DNA of 23,101 bases from a virus. Its lineage: Duplodnaviria; Heunggongvirae; Uroviricota; Caudoviricetes. Both the position numbers and the translations under genes were made by a program. The stretch lies in the IMG/VR virus record IMGVR_UViG_2698536506_000012; one strand, 5' to 3'. Shown here in pieces: positions 9,901-17,673 of the stretch. The first letter of the stretch is position 1. Each line of letters begins with the position of its first letter. A model generated the notes under the pieces. The model was not told the origin of the DNA. It saw only the letters and a program-made list of their open reading frames with translations, and made no database searches.

Positions 9901-10346
9901 GTCACCCAGGCGCCGTTACGCTGGATCTGGGCCAGTAATCTCACTTCTGACGGATTGCGGTCCCCCTGAGACGTGGTTTCCACCAGAGCCTGCACACCAA
10001 ACGTAAAACGCAGGCGGTCGATATTTTCTGATGTGATGGTCCGGGTGATCGGCGTGTCATATTTCACTTCCGTACCCAGTACCGTCTCGGAGCCGGAGGA
10101 CTCAAAACCCTCCGGCGGAGTCTGCTCCTGCTCACCGGCACGGAACACCACCGTGACCCCGGAGAAATTGGCCTTACCTTCACTGTCCAGCACCGGCGTA
10201 CTGTTCAGCAACACGCTTTTCATTCCGTCCACCGGTCCTTCAATCGGCCCTTCACTGATCGCATCAATCACGCTCAGTAACTGCGTGGATTTCAGGTTAT
10301 CTTTCGCTTCGCGAGGAGTGTGCCCCTTGCTGCCACCTTTACCCAT
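6948..10346 (-). CDS. J: Central tail fibre / host specificity protein J (1132 aa)
   Basis: ATG at 10346. The N-terminus [24 protein letters not shown] and the overall length match lambda J, and it lies between I and lom. Confidence 0.95.
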
Positions 10347-12407: not shown

Positions 12408-12737
12408 TCATACCACGACCTGTTCAAAATTTGCGGTTACCGTGACCCACAGCGCCCCCACACTGGACGACCATTTACGGCAGACCACCCGGACAGGTGT
12501 CCAGCCATAAGGCGGTGTCCACTGAAACGCCCTGACCCCACCGTGCCGGGCCAGAAACGCTTCCAGCGCCTGATGCTCCCCTTTACGGACACGGATCGTG
12601 ACACTGTACGTTGGCAACAGAGGATTCAGTCCCGCCGGACGACGCTGTTCATAACCATCACCCAGTTTAACTGTCACCACTTTTGGCTCTGAATCCACCT
12701 TCATATCCGGACGGACTTTCCAGCTAAATATCTCCAT
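12408..12737 (-). CDS. M: Minor tail protein M (109 aa)
   Basis: ATG at 12737 overlaps the H stop (ATGA coupling). MEIFSWKVRPDMKVD...WTPPYGWTPVRVVCRKWSS...FEQVV matches lambda M. Confidence 0.9.
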   Translation of the reverse strand: MEIFSWKVRPDMKVDSEPKVVTVKLGDGYEQRRPAGLNPLLPTYSVTIRVRKGEHQALEAFLARHGGVRAFQWTPPYGWTPVRVVCRKWSSSVGALWVTVTANFEQVVV

Positions 12738-15700
12738 CACCGGTATACTCCGCTTAACTGCCCGCCATCACGGGACTGTTGTTGCATAAAATCTTCTGCA
12801 GCCCTTTTCCCCAGGTTGTAAACCGCCTGCATGACTTCCGGCCCAATCTGTCCGTTCTGGCCATCATTATTGATCTCGATGTTGTACTGCGGCGCAAACA
12901 TCACCATCCCCGAACCACAGGTCGCTGCCACAACACCCAGCTTACCGTCAGCCCCCCTGCGCAAGGGCAGGATAGCCTCAGGCCCCGCTTCACCCATCAC
13001 CCCCGCGCCTTTTGCAAAAGCAAAAAACGTTGGACGGTTAACCACCGTGCCACTGTAGCGACTCAAATCAGCAGACTGATAAACACCACCTTCTGCATTG
13101 GTTTTCACATCACCGAAATCAAACCCCATCACACTGCCAATCCCTTTGACAGCCTTCATCATGGTTGCCTGCGCCAGAATTTTTGCCATATCTGACAGCA
13201 CAGATGAGGTGAAAGATTTGAAATTGAGTTTGCCGGTGGTAACAAAAGTTGCCAGACCATTTCCCATACTACTGAAAGCAGACATAAACATCTGTTCTGC
13301 AGTCCCGGCAGCATTATCCGCGTCGGCAGTAAAATTCATGAACGCGCGTTTTGTACCGTTTTTCCACTCCCCCTGCGCAGCATCCATCTGTTGCCAGTAG
13401 CGGCGATTCTCATTCAGTTTCCGGTTCAGACTGTCTGTCAGCGTCTGTTCAGCCTTCCGGTATGCGTCAGAACCATACGAGCCTTTCTGCTTACTGTCCC
13501 GTTCAAGTTGCTCCAGCTGTTGCTGGTACTGCTGTCGTAGACGCAACTGCGACTGGTACCGCTGCCGTTGCTTATCGCCCATTCCCGCCATGGCAACGTC
13601 CAGATCGTGTTGCTGACGCTGTGCGCGCTCTTCCTCAGCCAGTTGACTGGTCAGCTGAATGGTCTTTTTCTTCAGGTCATTGAGGGCAGTCTGCTTCTGC
13701 AGCTCCTGCTGTTTTGCATCCAGCAGCGTCAGTGCCTGAATCAGCTCATCCTTGTGAGCCAGAACACTTTTTTCATCTGCTGTCAGTTTTTTACCGGCTA
13801 AATCGCTGATACGCTGCTGAAGGGCCAGAAGCTGTTTATGCGCTTCTGTCATCCTTTCAGTAGCCATGCCCGCTGACTGTCTGGCGGCGGCAATCTGTCC
13901 CTCCACCTGCGCCTGTTGCTGGCTGTACTGCAGTAATAACCGGGTGGCCTCATCATTACGGGTGGCAGGCGTTTTTTTCTTAATGGCTTTTTCGTAACGT
14001 TCATTTTCACGCTGTATCGCTGCGTCCCTGACCGCCTGATCGGCGTACTGCATGGCATTAATACGCGCAATTTCACGCTGATGTCGTGCTGCTTCCGTTT
14101 CGTTCATCCGGTTCAGCGCGGCATTTTCAGCATTCCGGCGTTTCTGCTGCTCCTGATAATTTCGCTCAGCCTGCTCTTTTGCATCCTGCAAATCCTGCTG
14201 GCGTTTTCGCTCTTGCAGCGCATCCAGTTGTTGCTGATCGTATTCCCCCGTGGTGGACGCCTTAGTCCACGGAAATTTCTTCGCCCGCTGAATTTTTTCC
14301 TGCAGCGACGCAATCTGCGCATCAAGGGAATCTTCCCGACCAATGTTCATGGCCGCATCCCAGAACTGCTTCCACCAGTCAGACAAGGTTTGCAGCGTAC
14401 TGCCCAGCGCATTGAGGTTATTATCAATATCCGACGTACGTTTACCGGTTTCCTCTGCCAGTGCAGACATGGCTATCCGGGCGGCGTCACTGGTGCGCCC
14501 CTGCTCTCCGAGCACACGGATCTGTTCAAGCTGGGTGGCTGTCAGAAAATGCAGTTCATCATCCAGCGCCTTCGCAGCACTGACCGGATCATCCTTCAGC
14601 CGTTTAAACTGACTGATGGTGTCACTGACAGACTGCCCTACCGAGCGTTCCATCTGTGCGGCAGCTTTCGCCACCATACCAATATCGTTACCGTGAAATG
14701 CACCGCTCCCCACTACCTGCGCCAGTGACCCCGCCATGGCATGTTGCGTGATGCCATTACCGGAAAGATTTTTACTGAGCGCCCACAACTGCCCGGCTGT
14801 CACACCGGCATAGTGTCCGGTGAGCTCAAGCTGCCGGTTAAAGGCTTCGCCTTCTTCCTGCCCCTCCATCCAGGCTTTACCCAGACCAATAACCGCAGCA
14901 GTGATCCCTCCGATAACTCCCCCCACCGCCAGGCCTTTCGGCGTCATTAATTTATCAATCCAGCCGGCACGGTTAGCCAGGGTGATCCCGGAGCCACGAA
15001 GCGCACCGAAATTACCACGCGCCAGTTCACCAATCATGACCCCCAGCTCCCGACGGGCTGCCGCACTTTTCAGTCCCAGCGAATGTGTGGTGTTTCCGGC
15101 TTTCTCCATTTTACGGATGTACACCTCCGCGGCACTGCTGCACCCAAGTTGTGCCGCCTTTGCCCGAAGCAGTTCCGTCGTGGTCATTTTCTGGCGACTT
15201 GTCTGTTCTTTCAGCTGACGAATAAATGCGGTTTTCTGGCGGGTGGCCGTTTCCTCTGCCTGTGTCAGAACGCGGGTTTTCGCTGTCACCTCAGAAATCA
15301 GGGCCAGATAATCCTGCTGAGCAATCCCGCCACTGTTTCTGGCCTGTCGGATCTGCTGCTGAATACGCTGTAACTCCTGCAGCCCCGCACTGGCCTGTTT
15401 TACGCTGTCGATCTGACGATAAAATGCGGCAGCCATCTTATCCTGCGCCGCAGCCAGCGCAGCCGCCTGAACCTGCTCCTCCCGCATCTGACGACTCAGG
15501 GCCTCCATCCGCAGGCGCGCCCTTTCCACATCTTCCGCCAGCGAAACATGCCCCTGCGCATGCTTCACCACGGCCTGAGTCTGTATCACCGTCGCGCTGG
15601 CAGCCTGTTTCTGACTTTCCTCAAACCGTTTCATACGGGCTTCGGCCCGCTCCGCCTCCCTTGCTGTACCATTCAGCAGATTTTTTACACGCGGAAGCTG

Positions 15701-15760
15701 CTCTTTAAAATCGGCGGTATCAATGCTTAAATCAATGACAAGGTCAGCAATCTGGTCCAA
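12737..15760 (-). CDS. H: Tail tape measure protein H (1007 aa)
   Basis: The N-terminus (M)DQIADLVIDLSIDTADFKEQ aligns with the lambda H N-terminus, and the C-terminus ...NNDGQNGQIGPEVMQAVYNLGKRAAEDFMQQQSRDGGQLSGVYR aligns with the lambda H C-terminus. The only in-frame start near the conserved N-terminus is TTG at 15760, with GGAGG about 8 nt upstream. Confidence 0.9.
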   Translation of the reverse strand: MDQIADLVIDLSIDTADFKEQLPRVKNLLNGTAREAERAEARMKRFEESQKQAASATVIQTQAVVKHAQGHVSLAEDVERARLRMEALSRQMREEQVQAAALAAAQDKMAAAFYRQIDSVKQASAGLQELQRIQQQIRQARNSGGIAQQDYLALISEVTAKTRVLTQAEETATRQKTAFIRQLKEQTSRQKMTTTELLRAKAAQLGCSSAAEVYIRKMEKAGNTTHSLGLKSAAARRELGVMIGELARGNFGALRGSGITLANRAGWIDKLMTPKGLAVGGVIGGITAAVIGLGKAWMEGQEEGEAFNRQLELTGHYAGVTAGQLWALSKNLSGNGITQHAMAGSLAQVVGSGAFHGNDIGMVAKAAAQMERSVGQSVSDTISQFKRLKDDPVSAAKALDDELHFLTATQLEQIRVLGEQGRTSDAARIAMSALAEETGKRTSDIDNNLNALGSTLQTLSDWWKQFWDAAMNIGREDSLDAQIASLQEKIQRAKKFPWTKASTTGEYDQQQLDALQERKRQQDLQDAKEQAERNYQEQQKRRNAENAALNRMNETEAARHQREIARINAMQYADQAVRDAAIQRENERYEKAIKKKTPATRNDEATRLLLQYSQQQAQVEGQIAAARQSAGMATERMTEAHKQLLALQQRISDLAGKKLTADEKSVLAHKDELIQALTLLDAKQQELQKQTALNDLKKKTIQLTSQLAEEERAQRQQHDLDVAMAGMGDKQRQRYQSQLRLRQQYQQQLEQLERDSKQKGSYGSDAYRKAEQTLTDSLNRKLNENRRYWQQMDAAQGEWKNGTKRAFMNFTADADNAAGTAEQMFMSAFSSMGNGLATFVTTGKLNFKSFTSSVLSDMAKILAQATMMKAVKGIGSVMGFDFGDVKTNAEGGVYQSADLSRYSGTVVNRPTFFAFAKGAGVMGEAGPEAILPLRRGADGKLGVVAATCGSGMVMFAPQYNIEINNDGQNGQIGPEVMQAVYNLGKRAAEDFMQQQSRDGGQLSGVYR

Positions 15761-16456
15761 ATCTCATTCCTCCCGATATACCTTCCCCCAGATGCATCAG
15801 CTCTTCATCCGTGCGTTCAGGGATCACCCTGTCATCCGTAACCAGACTGAAATCATCCGCCGGAATACGTTCACCGGACACCATCTGAACCATCAGCGAC
15901 TTCAGTGTGGAAATCTGTGCATCCAGCCAGATATCCCCGAAACTCTGCTTCCTGAAGAAATCCCCCCATTCGCCCAGTTCTGACGCTGACATTTCTGATA
16001 ACATCCGCCGCCAGTCTGCCCGCCGGAACTCACGGGCAAGCTGCATCACAAACTGCATCTCCCGCGTCAGGACTTTTCCGGTGTCAGAGGAACCTGTTCA
16101 CCGTTCTGAACATCACCGGTGGAGACCGGCATACCACTCAGGGATAAAACCAGACTGCCCCCGTCGCCAAGCGCGTCATAAGACCAGGTGTTTTTTACAT
16201 CCTCATTCAGCGCATCCACATCCTGTGACGGGTCCGTATTCCACATTGACCGGGAAACCAGCCAGGCGTTGATATCCATCCCCATACGCAGAAATTCAAT
16301 CTGACGTTCAGCCACCGGCATGGCATCATCCAGGGCGTCAAACTCAGCCGTCCGTTTCTGGACAAACGACAGATATTCCACCCGCTGCAGCCCGGACAGT
16401 TCTGTCATAACCACAGACTGATCACCGTAATTAAATGTGTCCTGTTTCAGAAACAT
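15744..16456 (-). CDS. Tail assembly chaperone G-T (fusion made by a programmed -1 frameshift near the end of G)
   Basis: A 104-codon ORF (15744-16058) lies in the -1 frame relative to G and overlaps its 3' end. That frame is open back to a stop at 16100-16098, and the arrangement sits between V and H as in lambda G/GT. Confidence 0.7.
16067..16456 (-). CDS. G: Tail assembly chaperone G (about 129 aa)
   Basis: ATG at 16456 (MFLKQDTFNYGD..., like lambda G MFLK...) with a GGAGAAGG ribosome-binding site; stop TGA at 16069-16067. The ORF-track start at 16477 is a TTG. Confidence 0.85.
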   Translation of the reverse strand: MFLKQDTFNYGDQSVVMTELSGLQRVEYLSFVQKRTAEFDALDDAMPVAERQIEFLRMGMDINAWLVSRSMWNTDPSQDVDALNEDVKNTWSYDALGDGGSLVLSLSGMPVSTGDVQNGEQVPLTPEKS

Positions 16457-16473
16457 AACCTTCTCCGCAAACA

Positions 16474-16498
16474 ACAAAAAAACCCCGGCATACCGGGG
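16474..16498 (-). terminator. Stem-loop plus U-tract immediately downstream of V
   Basis: On the - strand: ACCCCGG-TATG-CCGGGGT followed by TTTTTTTGTTGTTT, lying between the V stop (16517) and the G ribosome-binding site. Confidence 0.6.
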
Positions 16499-16516
16499 TA
16501 CAAACAGACCGTCTGA

Positions 16517-17257
16517 TTAACCACCATTAACGGTAATACTGGCCACTGCGACCTGTGCGCCACCCGCTGTCATCCCGACAATCGAGGTGCTTCCCGCTTT
16601 CACACCTTTCACCGTGGCCACCATGCCACTCAGTGTAACCGTGGCGATCTCAGGAGAGGATGACGCCACACTCACCGTTTTATCAGATGCATCTTCCGGT
16701 ACTGTGCTGAATGTCAGCGTCGTCGTTGCCCCCACCCTGACACTGGCAGATGCCGGTGCCACCGTCAGACCGGTCACGCTAACAAGCCCGGTGCCTTCCT
16801 CTGCCAGATACGGACGTCCCACACCGCTGATTTTCACAGTGCGGGTCATCACCTCTTTAGAGGTAACAGTTTTCCCCAGCGAGCTCAGCCAGCCACGGAA
16901 AACATCAACAGTGCCGTTGGGATATTTGATACGAAACGCACAGACTTCACCAGAGTCGAACAACTGAACCAGTTTTTTCTGCCCGCTGTCACCCGGACGC
17001 CAGGCCAGCGTCGCCGAAGTATCACCGACGGATTTTTGCCCCTGGGTTGTCGTTTTCCAGTCAGCATTTTCATCATCGAGATAATCGTCATCTTCCGCAT
17101 CTGCAGTCATTTCGCCCGGCTGTAAATCCTTCACCATCGCAAGACGCAGCCAGTCAGTATCTGACAACGGAGCCGCAAAGGCGTCCCCTTTGCCGGTATA
17201 CATCCAGAACGTCGTCCCCGCGCCCTTCGTTTTTTCCAGTGGATTCGGTGTTGGCAT
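16517..17257 (-). CDS. V: Major tail protein V with a C-terminal Ig-like (Big_2-type) domain (246 aa)
   Basis: ATG at 17257 with AAGGAG 6 nt upstream. MPTPNPLEKTKGAGTTFWMY...NGTVDVFRGW matches lambda V. The ORF-track start at 17275 is a TTG. Confidence 0.92.
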   Translation of the reverse strand: MPTPNPLEKTKGAGTTFWMYTGKGDAFAAPLSDTDWLRLAMVKDLQPGEMTADAEDDDYLDDENADWKTTTQGQKSVGDTSATLAWRPGDSGQKKLVQLFDSGEVCAFRIKYPNGTVDVFRGWLSSLGKTVTSKEVMTRTVKISGVGRPYLAEEGTGLVSVTGLTVAPASASVRVGATTTLTFSTVPEDASDKTVSVASSSPEIATVTLSGMVATVKGVKAGSTSIVGMTAGGAQVAVASITVNGG

Positions 17258-17271
17258 TACCATCTCCTTGT

Positions 17272-17673
17272 TCAATTTGTATATGTGATCTGATACGTGA
17301 TTTCCGCCATCGCCCAGGTGGCCATCTCGTTATCACGCTGATAGTTAAATCCCTGCGGGATCATGGTATCGATAAGATCTGAAAGTGCCGGAATATCTGT
17401 CAGAGCCGGGTAAATAATGTCATCCATCCACGTATCCAGTTCTGTATCCGGTGCCTGCGCCCGGATAAAGACCGCGACATGCAGAACCGCCTGCCAGTCA
17501 GCCTCATCCACCATTTTTCCGGTGTACTGCGCATCGCTCAGCCATACCGCCACGGCGGGCAGTTCCTGCGCATCAATAAAAGCAGGAAGTCCATCGAACA
17601 GGACGGTATTCTCCCTGCACGTCGCTTTCAGGCACGACAATACGGCCTGACGAATTTGTGTGTGTCGGTTCAT
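17272..17673 (-). CDS. U: Tail terminator protein U (133 aa)
   Basis: ATG at 17673 overlaps the Z stop (ATGA). ...PAVAVWLSDAQYTG...DIPALSDLIDTM... matches lambda U. Confidence 0.92.
   Translation of the reverse strand: MNRHTQIRQAVLSCLKATCRENTVLFDGLPAFIDAQELPAVAVWLSDAQYTGKMVDEADWQAVLHVAVFIRAQAPDTELDTWMDDIIYPALTDIPALSDLIDTMIPQGFNYQRDNEMATWAMAEITYQITYTN

What the first reader, a model, noticed from the sequence alone, without database searches (positions are those of the whole stretch)
16069..16098. G-T programmed -1 frameshift with an apparently non-canonical slippery site
The T-frame ORF (15744-16058) is -1 relative to G. It is open only as far back as a stop at 16100-16098, so the shift must happen within the last 10 codons of G (- strand ...ACA GGT TCC TCT GAC ACC GGA AAA GTC CTG A...). 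Lambda uses G GGA AAG (established). Here the only candidate is CCG GAA AAG (GGAAAAG, - strand 16081-16073), which does not fit the canonical X XXY YYZ pattern in the P-site half. Either the frameshift uses A-site-dominated slippage on A AAG or a different mechanism, or the efficiency differs from lambda.
Basis: partly seen in the sequence, partly recalled or inferred. Interest (0 to 1): 0.5.

Follow-up and report, generated by a model that had tools for sequence, protein, structure and literature searches.

The report
Known relaxed slippery site in G-T
This is the ordinary lambda-type G/G-T tail-chaperone frameshift site of an E. coli prophage; its slightly imperfect slippery sequence G GAA AAG is the commonest form in this phage family and is already annotated as such in phages N15 and phi80.

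Summary
On the - strand, G (16456-16067, PF06894) is followed by a T reading frame (PF06223) in the -1 frame. That frame is open only back to TGA 16100-16098, and the only slip-prone sequence in the 34-nt overlap is G GAA AAG (16079-16073).

The heptamer lies exactly where lambda has G GGA AAG, one base different. It is not unusual. It occurs in 123 of 146 related loci and 27 of 33 divergent lineages. Heptamer bases 1, 2, 4, 5 and 6 are invariant while the flanking synonymous sites are saturated. GenBank records of N15 and phi80 already label GGAAAAG at this spot as the "slippery sequence for -1 translational frameshift".

The invariant G at base 1 is a synonymous third position behind five different amino acids. 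This argues for two-tRNA slippage, with tRNA-Glu re-pairing GAA to GGA through a middle G-U pair, rather than A-site-only slippage. I found no conserved downstream structure or upstream Shine-Dalgarno stimulator.

One point stays open. In vitro work used G GAA AAG as its "unfavourable" control, so the in vivo efficiency is worth measuring. Low novelty, low to moderate interest.

The parts
16067..16456 (-). Gene G, tail assembly chaperone (129 aa plus TGA stop at 16069-16067)
   Evidence: Translation. Pfam PF06894 Phage_TAC_2, E 1.2e-37. PGAP names it 'phage tail assembly chaperone G' in the 100%-identical E. coli C5 record.
16073..16079 (-). Slippery heptamer G GAA AAG. P-site codon GAA is 16078-16076 and A-site codon AAG is 16075-16073.
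   Evidence: Direct reading. Aligned with lambda G GGA AAG. The same heptamer is annotated as the slippery sequence in N15 and phi80. Bases 1, 2, 4, 5 and 6 are invariant in 33 lineages.
16098..16100 (-). TGA stop in the -1 (T) frame, the upstream limit of the frameshift window
15744..16073 (-). -1-frame T segment of the G-T fusion. It starts by re-reading G16073 (GTC = Val) and ends at the stop 15746-15744. The predicted GT fusion is 237 aa.
   Evidence: Translation. Pfam PF06223 Phage_tail_T, E 1.5e-13. -1-frame protein conservation begins directly after the heptamer: KVLTREMQFVMQLAREF here against lambda KVFDGELSFALKLAREM.
16056..16058 (-). ATG used by PGAP and the ORF lister as the 'start' of a stand-alone T. 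It is probably not a real start.
   Evidence: This position is CTG in 30 of 33 lineages (relative positions 22-24). GGGAG abuts the ATG with no spacer.
12737..15760 (-). Tape measure gene H, downstream context
   Evidence: Pfam TMP_2, Tape_meas_lam_C and TMP_4; PGAP annotation
16517..17275 (-). Major tail tube gene V, upstream context (ORF as listed; the PGAP start is at 17257)
   Evidence: Pfam Phage_TTP_12 and Big_2

Best explanation
The window carries the tail genes of a lambda-like prophage and is 100% identical to E. coli strain C5. Most ribosomes translate G and stop at TGA 16069-16067. A small fraction slips back one base on G GAA AAG (16079-16073) and carries on in the T frame, making a 237-aa G-T fusion (...T-P-E-K-V-L-T-R...). 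In lambda this fusion links the tape measure protein to the tail tube subunit.

The most likely slip involves two tRNAs.
- tRNA-Lys (anticodon mnm5s2UUU) moves from AAG to AAA, a better match.
- tRNA-Glu (anticodon mnm5s2UUC) moves from GAA to GGA. It keeps G:C at codon position 1 and A:U at position 3, and accepts a G-U wobble in the middle.

The heptamer appears to act alone, with no conserved RNA structure or Shine-Dalgarno stimulator, as is thought for lambda.

Shown here: the gene identities, the frame geometry, homology of the site with lambda's, nucleotide-level selection on the heptamer, and the absence of conserved stimulators. Inferred: that slippage occurs at all, the two-tRNA mechanism, and the efficiency (expected in the low per-cent range).
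For: Locus identity.
- G is PF06894, T is PF06223, and they sit between V and H.
- T is -1 relative to G in all 146 related loci, and the -1 frame is always open across the heptamer.

Site identity.
- The site aligns base for base with lambda GCG GGA AAG, and the fusion proteins align across it.
- The heptamer is GGAAAAG in 123 of 146 loci. That covers 39 of 61 genome loci from many Enterobacterales genera and 80 of 80 viral contigs.
- N15 (NC_001901, 10027-10033) and phi80 (FN582354.1, 10194-10200, with a joined gpG-T CDS) annotate this exact heptamer as the 'slippery sequence for -1 translational frameshift'.
- The Gifsy-1 record calls its T 'part of ... gpG by translational frameshifting'.

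Nucleotide-level selection.
- In 33 lineages below 93% identity, bases 1, 2, 4, 5 and 6 are 33/33. Base 3 is A27/G4/C2 and base 7 is G30/A3.
- Neighbouring third codon positions carry 1.5-2.0 bits of entropy.
- Base 1 is the synonymous third position of CCG, GCG, CTG, TTG, GTG, ACG or ATG. The chance that it is always G, given codon usage in these genes, is about 1e-13 if lineages are treated as independent.
- GAA is never replaced by GAG (about 1e-6).
- Other clades keep base 1 equal to base 2: A AAA AAG in Stx phages and C CCA AAA in Vibrio phages.

Literature.
- 'G_GA' in place of X_XX is a recognised relaxed P-site class, and G_GU is used in T7 gene 10 (PMC5009743).
- G:U re-pairing of GAA to GGA is discussed in PMC10885494.
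- A_AAG is the most shift-prone tetramer in E. coli (PMC4066793).
Against: - No direct evidence of a G-T protein from this prophage or from any G GAA AAG phage was found in the searchable literature.
- In a purified E. coli system, AUG GAA AAG was chosen as the 'unfavourable' sequence and gave mainly 0-frame product with wild-type EF-G (PMC6924986).
- A_AAG without a stimulator gave only about 0.15% in vivo (PMC4066793), and I found no stimulator here. Window downstream folds have z -1.46 and -0.9. RNAalifold gives -1.35 kcal/mol with 0 covarying pairs. The upstream anti-SD duplex is -3.7 kcal/mol here, and the family mean of -4.35 compares with a background of -3.76.
- Two lineages (G GCA AAA TAG) cannot re-pair the P-site tRNA well, so tRNA-Lys alone can evidently suffice in some contexts.
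- Lineages are related, so the independence-based probabilities overstate significance.
Confidence: 0.7

Rival explanations
1. Single-tRNA slippage. Only tRNA-Lys slips on the tetramer A AAG, either in the A site or in the P site while UCC waits. The GAA codon matters only because it supplies the A before AAG.
For: - A_AAG is the strongest tetramer in E. coli, 5.6% with a pseudoknot (PMC4066793).
- The G GCA AAA TAG lineages L013 and L016 lack good P-site re-pairing.
Against: - Heptamer bases 1 and 2 should then be free, yet they are invariant in 33 of 33 lineages. Base 1 is a synonymous site whose neighbouring synonymous sites are saturated.
- P-site codons are only GAA, GGA or GCA (AAA or CCA in other clades), always with base 1 equal to base 2. 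No other NNA codon appears.
- The tetramer alone gives about background frameshifting without a stimulator, and none is conserved here.
Confidence: 0.2
2. There is no frameshift. T is made on its own from ATG 16058, as in the PGAP annotation with separate G and T CDSs.
For: - An ATG exists at 16058-16056, preceded by GGGAG.
- PGAP and most phage records annotate T as a separate CDS.
Against: - The GGGAG abuts the ATG with no spacer.
- The ATG is CTG in 30 of 33 lineages and no other start is conserved.
- -1-frame codons between the heptamer and that ATG are conserved as protein.
- The -1 frame is open across the heptamer in 146 of 146 loci.
- In lambda the G:GT ratio of 30:1 set by frameshifting is crucial for tail assembly (PMC5009743).
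Confidence: 0.05
3. The frame change arises in the mRNA, by RNA polymerase slippage on the A run, or the prophage is decayed and the arrangement is meaningless.
For: - A run of four A is present.
- One related contig (L230) has lost the site by deletion.
Against: - Four A is far shorter than the long homopolymer runs known to cause transcriptional slippage (my own knowledge of the field).
- The arrangement and the heptamer are conserved across genera.
- All flanking tail genes in the window are intact.
Confidence: 0.02

Closest known systems
Phage lambda G/G-T programmed -1 frameshift (Levin, Hendrix and Casjens 1993; Xu, Hendrix and Duda 2004, 2013, 2014; as summarised in PMC5009743)
   Same: - Same gene order V-G-T-H.
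- Same Pfam families.
- Same -1 geometry.
- The shift site is at the aligned codon pair.
- The fusion sequence continues K-V-(L/F) after the site.
- No evident stimulator.
   Different: - Heptamer base 3 is A instead of G (G GAA AAG against G GGA AAG), so the P-site tRNA is Glu rather than Gly, and re-pairing needs a middle-position G-U.
- The G stop follows 1 codon after the site rather than 5.
- The proteins are only 34% identical to lambda's.
N15 genes 14/15 and phi80 gene G-T (GenBank NC_001901 and FN582354.1)
   Same: The identical heptamer GGAAAAG, at the homologous position, is explicitly annotated as the 'slippery sequence for -1 translational frameshift'. The phi80 record also carries a joined gpG-T CDS.
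   Different: - The preceding codon is GCG (Ala), not CCG (Pro).
- The G stop is 5 codons downstream.
- The T domains are about 40-45% identical to the window's.
- I found no experimental test of these sites in the searchable literature.
cdtI / mEp460 / Gifsy-1 / Fels-1 G and T genes
   Same: These are the closest sequenced phages, 69-76% nucleotide identity. They share CCG GAA AAG (T/C)CC TGA, and the Gifsy-1 record notes the frameshift.
   Different: They are merely diverged copies. Most records annotate T as a separate CDS.
Relaxed 'G_GA' heptamers of eukaryotic RNA viruses, with G_GA in place of X_XX in insect-specific flaviviruses, dianthoviruses, umbraviruses and mesoniviruses, and G_GU in T7 gene 10
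   Same: The same kind of departure from X XXY YYZ. Heptamer bases 1 and 2 are G and base 3 differs, so P-site re-pairing keeps position 1 (PMC5009743).
   Different: - Different ribosomes and tRNAs.
- Those viral sites usually depend on a downstream structure, and none is conserved here.
dnaX and IS3/IS911-type -1 frameshift signals in E. coli
   Same: They use the same shifty tRNA-Lys on an A AAG A-site codon (PMC4066793).
   Different: Those have fully re-pairing heptamers (A AAA AAG) plus Shine-Dalgarno and hairpin or pseudoknot stimulators. Neither stimulator is found here.

Membership tests
Lambda-type G/G-T tail assembly chaperone frameshift | Two small ORFs lie between the major tail tube gene and the tape measure gene | tested here: met
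   V (PF16461), G, T and H (PF06791, PF09718) are in order on the - strand
Lambda-type G/G-T tail assembly chaperone frameshift | The upstream ORF is a gpG-family chaperone and the downstream frame encodes a gpT domain | tested here: met
   PF06894 E 1.2e-37; PF06223 E 1.5e-13
Lambda-type G/G-T tail assembly chaperone frameshift | The downstream frame is -1 relative to G and is open across the 3' end of G | tested here: met
   The same holds in 146 of 146 related loci.
Lambda-type G/G-T tail assembly chaperone frameshift | A slippery sequence lies in the overlap at the position homologous to lambda's | tested here: met
   G GAA AAG aligns with lambda G GGA AAG, is conserved, and is annotated as slippery in N15 and phi80
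Lambda-type G/G-T tail assembly chaperone frameshift | A G-T fusion protein is made at a few per cent of G and is needed for tail assembly | not testable with these tools
   Needs a reporter assay, western blot or mass spectrometry. The 30:1 ratio is known for lambda only (PMC5009743).
Canonical X XXY YYZ slippery heptamer | Heptamer bases 1-3 are identical and bases 4-6 are identical | tested here: not met
   The sequence is G G A A A A G, so base 3 differs from bases 1 and 2. No canonical heptamer lies anywhere in the 34-nt overlap.
Relaxed heptamer with near-cognate P-site re-pairing (the G_GA class; the N15/phi80 GGAAAAG) | Base 1 equals base 2, so the first codon position re-pairs; the A-site codon re-pairs fully; the middle mismatch is a G-U | tested here: met
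   Sequence. Bases 1 and 2 are invariant in 33 of 33 lineages. The class is described in PMC5009743 and PMC10885494. That the G-U pair actually forms on the ribosome is inferred.
Stimulated bacterial -1 frameshift signal (dnaX or IS type) | A downstream hairpin or pseudoknot starts about 5-9 nt after the heptamer | tested here: not met
   Window folds are no better than shuffles (z -1.46 and -0.9), and the one stable hairpin starts about 33 nt downstream. There is no consensus structure in 31 sequences and no Rfam match.
Stimulated bacterial -1 frameshift signal (dnaX or IS type) | A Shine-Dalgarno-like sequence lies 6-17 nt upstream | tested here: not met
   The best anti-SD duplex in the window is -3.7 kcal/mol. 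The family distribution is no stronger than the gene background.

The most novel reading that the evidence does not exclude
G GAA AAG, which ribosome biophysicists used as their 'unfavourable, less slippery' control, may give lambda-like frameshifting of a few per cent in vivo with no RNA stimulator. That would mean one of two things. Either a middle-position G-U pair in the P site costs almost nothing during slippage. Or this family carries an unrecognised stimulator, for example the conserved E-x-(V/L)-x-x nascent peptide or mRNA pattern just upstream, or the invariant NNG codon before the site.
Probability: 0.25. Interest if true: 0.4.

Novelty: already known. Interest (0 to 1): 0.2.

Why it matters
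For genome annotation, it matters that T in this prophage family should be annotated as a G-T fusion by ribosomal slippage at G GAA AAG. PGAP and most phage records instead give a stand-alone CDS from a non-conserved ATG. This arrangement occurs in about 1,670 of 5,426 complete E. coli genomes.

For translation mechanics, the family offers a natural, strongly conserved test case. The heptamer's P-site half re-pairs only through a middle G-U, and it sits one mutation away from the textbook G GGA AAG. Measuring the two side by side in their native contexts would show how much P-site pairing really contributes in vivo.

Beyond that, the finding is ordinary.

Tried and rejected
- **Downstream RNA stimulator.** I folded 58 and 98 nt after the heptamer and ran RNAalifold on 31 diverse sequences. 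Nothing was conserved. The stable hairpin in the LAREFRR-coding stretch starts about 33 nt downstream and does not covary. Rejected.
- **Upstream Shine-Dalgarno stimulator.** Anti-SD duplex energies were no stronger than the gene background. Only two lineages (L037, L015) have strong ones. Rejected as a family feature and for this window.
- **Rfam scan of 15700-16500.** It gave only sub-threshold hits to the V-G terminator hairpin.
- **Independent initiation of T.** Rejected on start-codon non-conservation and SD spacing.
- **Transcriptional slippage.** The A run is too short.
- **Literature.** I searched for any experimental test or discussion of GGAAAAG as a phage G-T site and found none in the open library. 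Xu et al. 2004 could not be read, so I cannot say whether that paper lists this heptamer. The thermodynamic frameshift model paper (PMC6787027) does not cover second-position changes. The PRFect supplement held nothing relevant.
- **Not run.** I did not run the large protein searches or structure prediction, because they could not change the verdict.

Full report
**What is in the sequence.**
On the - strand the window carries a lambda-like tail gene block.
- V runs 17275/17257-16517 and matches Phage_TTP_12 plus Big_2.
- G runs 16456-16067 (129 aa) and matches PF06894 at E 1.2e-37.
- An open frame matching PF06223 (minor tail protein T, E 1.5e-13) follows.
- The tape measure gene H runs 15760-12737.

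G-frame codons at the 3' end are GAA CAG GTT CCT CTG ACA CCG GAA AAG TCC TGA. The T frame lies one base 5' of it (-1). It is closed upstream by TGA 16100-16098 and runs to the stop at 15746-15744.

Two details are wrong. The codon string it printed as the end of G (ACA GGT TCC TCT GAC ACC GGA AAA GTC CTG A) is the T frame. The heptamer GGAAAAG is 16079-16073, while 16081-16073 is the 9-mer CCGGAAAAG.

The overlap holds no X XXY YYZ heptamer. G GAA AAG is the only A AAR site.

**Where the window comes from.**
The 821 bases around the site are 100% identical to the chromosome of E. coli strain C5 from a cow (NZ_CP010122.1). PGAP there annotates 'phage tail assembly chaperone G' and a separate 'phage tail assembly protein T' starting at the ATG at 16058, with no slippage. 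About 1,670 of 5,426 complete E. coli genomes hold a G/T of this general type, mostly at 60-80% identity. The nearest named phages are mEp460, cdtI and relatives (about 76% identity), then Gifsy-1 and Fels-1.

**Comparison with lambda and relatives.**
Lambda reads ...TCT GCG GGA AAG TGT TCG... at the same place. The window differs from lambda's heptamer by one base, A for G at heptamer base 3. The fusion proteins align straight across the site: window ...TPEKVLTREMQFVMQLAREF, lambda ...SAGKVFDGELSFALKLAREM. mEp460, Gifsy-1 and Fels-1 all have CCG GAA AAG.

I then collected 69 loci from one-genome-per-species bacterial assemblies and 80 from viral contigs.
- In all 146 loci where both G and T could be placed, T is -1 relative to G and the -1 frame is open across the site.
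- The heptamer is GGAAAAG in 123 loci, GGGAAAG in 20, GGCAAAA in 2 and GGGAAAA in 1.
- Most of the GGGAAAG loci appear to be lambda itself.
- Further clades use A AAA AAG (Stx phages) and C CCA AAA (Vibrio phages) at the same position.

**It is already annotated.**
The GenBank record of phage N15 (NC_001901) carries a misc_feature 'slippery sequence for -1 translational frameshift' at 10027-10033, which reads GGAAAAG. The phi80 record (FN582354.1) carries the same label on GGAAAAG at 10194-10200, plus a joined gpG-T CDS. Gifsy-1's T is annotated as 'part of ... gpG by translational frameshifting'.

Homologues do not place the shift at a different, canonical heptamer. They place it at this same spot, mostly with this same heptamer. 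The site is therefore not new.

**Is the whole heptamer under selection, or only A AAG?**
I reduced the set to 33 lineages below 93% identity over 157 nt.
- Heptamer bases 1, 2, 4, 5 and 6 are invariant (33/33).
- Base 3 is A in 27, G in 4 and C in 2.
- Base 7 is G in 30 and A in 3.
- The bases on either side vary freely.

Base 1 is the third position of the preceding codon, which is CCG, GCG, CTG, TTG, GTG, ACG or ATG. The amino acid changes but the G stays. Third positions of the four codons upstream carry 1.5-2.0 bits of entropy, against 0 bits at base 1. Given codon usage in these same genes, an all-G outcome has a probability of about 1e-13, and GAA never being GAG about 1e-6, if lineages are treated as independent, which they are not fully.

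In neither slippage model is base 1 decoded in the -1 frame, so protein coding cannot explain its conservation. It makes sense only if the P-site tRNA must re-pair. tRNA-Glu moving from GAA to GGA keeps G:C at the first position and A:U at the third, with G-U in the middle. Other clades also keep base 1 equal to base 2 (A AA., C CC.).

I do not exclude that option. The two G GCA AAA TAG lineages show that tRNA-Lys next to a stop codon can apparently manage with poor P-site re-pairing.

**Stimulators.**
- The 58 and 98 nt after the heptamer fold no better than shuffled sequence (z -0.9 and -1.46). The one stable hairpin lies about 33 nt downstream, too far to meet the ribosome while the heptamer is being decoded.
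- RNAalifold on 31 diverse sequences finds essentially nothing: -1.35 kcal/mol, 4 pairs, none covarying.
- Upstream pairing to the anti-Shine-Dalgarno sequence is -3.7 kcal/mol in the window. Across the family it is no stronger than in the body of the G genes.
- No Rfam frameshift element matches.
- The distance from the heptamer to the G stop is 0, 1 or 5 codons in different lineages, so the nearby stop is not a constant feature.

**How this sits with the literature.**
- The review by Atkins et al. lists 'G_GA' in place of X_XX as a known relaxed class in several RNA virus groups, and G_GU in T7 gene 10. It describes lambda G-T frameshifting as low-level, setting a 30:1 ratio that is crucial for tail assembly (PMC5009743).
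- PRFect's authors note that GAA-to-GGA re-pairing is fully complementary if G:U is allowed (PMC10885494).
- Sharma et al. found A_AAG to be the best tetramer in E. coli. It was near background (about 0.15%) without a stimulator and 5.6% with the IS3 pseudoknot. G_GGA_AAG was among the best heptamers (PMC4066793).
- Peng et al. chose AUG GAA AAG, that is G GAA AAG, as the sequence 'unfavorable for slippage' because of the second-position mismatch. They saw mainly 0-frame product with wild-type EF-G, although EF-G mutants raised shifting on it too (PMC6924986).

That is the one mildly interesting tension. The laboratory's 'poor' sequence is nature's preferred one in this phage family. A low efficiency may be exactly what is wanted, since lambda needs only about 3% G-T. 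'Mainly 0-frame' is compatible with that. I found no measurement of this heptamer in vivo or of G-T from any phage that uses it, and I could not read Xu et al. 2004.

**Rivals.**
- Independent translation of T from ATG 16058 is unlikely. That codon is CTG in 30 of 33 lineages, no other start is conserved, GGGAG abuts the ATG without a spacer, and the -1-frame codons between the heptamer and the ATG are conserved as protein.
- Transcriptional slippage is unlikely on a run of only four A.
- Prophage decay is unlikely, given intact neighbours and cross-genus conservation. One related contig (L230) has deleted the site.

**Verdict.**
The interpretation 'G-T -1 frameshift at a heptamer that is non-canonical in its P-site half' is correct. 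The suggestion that this is unusual or needs a different mechanism is not supported. It is the standard site of a large clade, already labelled in N15 and phi80, and best explained by ordinary two-tRNA slippage with a G-U-tolerant P site and no stimulator. Novelty: already known. Interest: low (0.2). A modest open question remains about its real efficiency relative to G GGA AAG.

Noticed in passing
window 16482-16499 (- strand), followed by a T run, between V and G: A strong terminator-like hairpin (7 pairs, 6 of them G-C, then TTTTTTGTTG) sits in the V-G intergenic gap. The N15 and mEp460 records annotate a rho-independent terminator at the same place. It may be a conserved partial terminator that lowers expression of G, T, H and downstream genes relative to V.
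   Followed up: partly
window 16056-16058 (- strand); PGAP CDS WP_001161001.1 in NZ_CP010122.1: PGAP, like most phage records, annotates T as a stand-alone CDS from an ATG that is CTG in 30 of 33 lineages. This looks like a systematic mis-annotation of G-T fusions across roughly 1,670 complete E. coli genomes.
   Followed up: partly
L013 and L016 (Ewingella, Kluyvera), L045 (Providencia rustigianii), L033 and L034 (Providencia): In these variants the Lys codon of the heptamer abuts the G stop codon: CTG GCA AAA TAG, ATG GGA AAA TAG and CTG GAA AAG TAG. In the GCA form the P-site tRNA cannot re-pair well, which suggests stop-codon-assisted slippage of tRNA-Lys alone.
   Followed up: no
L158, L159 and L166-L245 (Stx-converting phages); L160, L164 and L165 (Vibrio phages): At the homologous position the Stx phages use the dnaX-type heptamer A AAA AAG (TCA AAA AAG) and the Vibrio phages use C CCA AAA. 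The family has therefore swapped heptamers repeatedly while keeping the position.
   Followed up: partly
relative positions -13 to -2 upstream of the heptamer in 33 lineages; window 16092-16081: A Glu codon (GAR) four codons upstream is nearly invariant (30-32 of 33). The second positions of the next three codons are conserved (C, T, C) while their third positions are free, giving the peptide pattern E-(P/A)-(V/L)-(T/S)-x-(E/G)-K. The window matches it only partly: it keeps the V, but its Glu lies three codons further upstream. The cause is unexplained. It could be a G tail or linker motif, or a nascent-peptide effect.
   Followed up: no
L047-L058: Assemblies of Neobacillus, Oceanobacillus, Kitasatospora, Chromatium, Shewanella, Pseudomonas, Leeuwenhoekiella, Paenibacillus and others gave tblastn scores matching one another and close to lambda's. 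Some sit on contigs of about 48.5 kb, and the assembler-reported coverage is low, where given. This looks like lambda control-DNA contamination. MAGs labelled Bacillota (L006) and Geobacteraceae (L030) also carry enterobacterial prophage G/T.
   Followed up: no
L230 (IMGVR_UViG_2869970738_000006), locus positions about 1190-1210: A Stx-type G/T locus in which about 30 nt, including the slippery heptamer and the G stop, are deleted. The G frame then reads through out of register with T. It is probably a decayed prophage.
   Followed up: partly
window, 7 sites: GGAAAAG occurs 7 times on the two strands of the window against 3.05 expected (6 of 100 shuffles reach 7). The copy at 12804-12810 (-) near the end of H is not in the H reading frame. 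I did not examine the others.
   Followed up: partly
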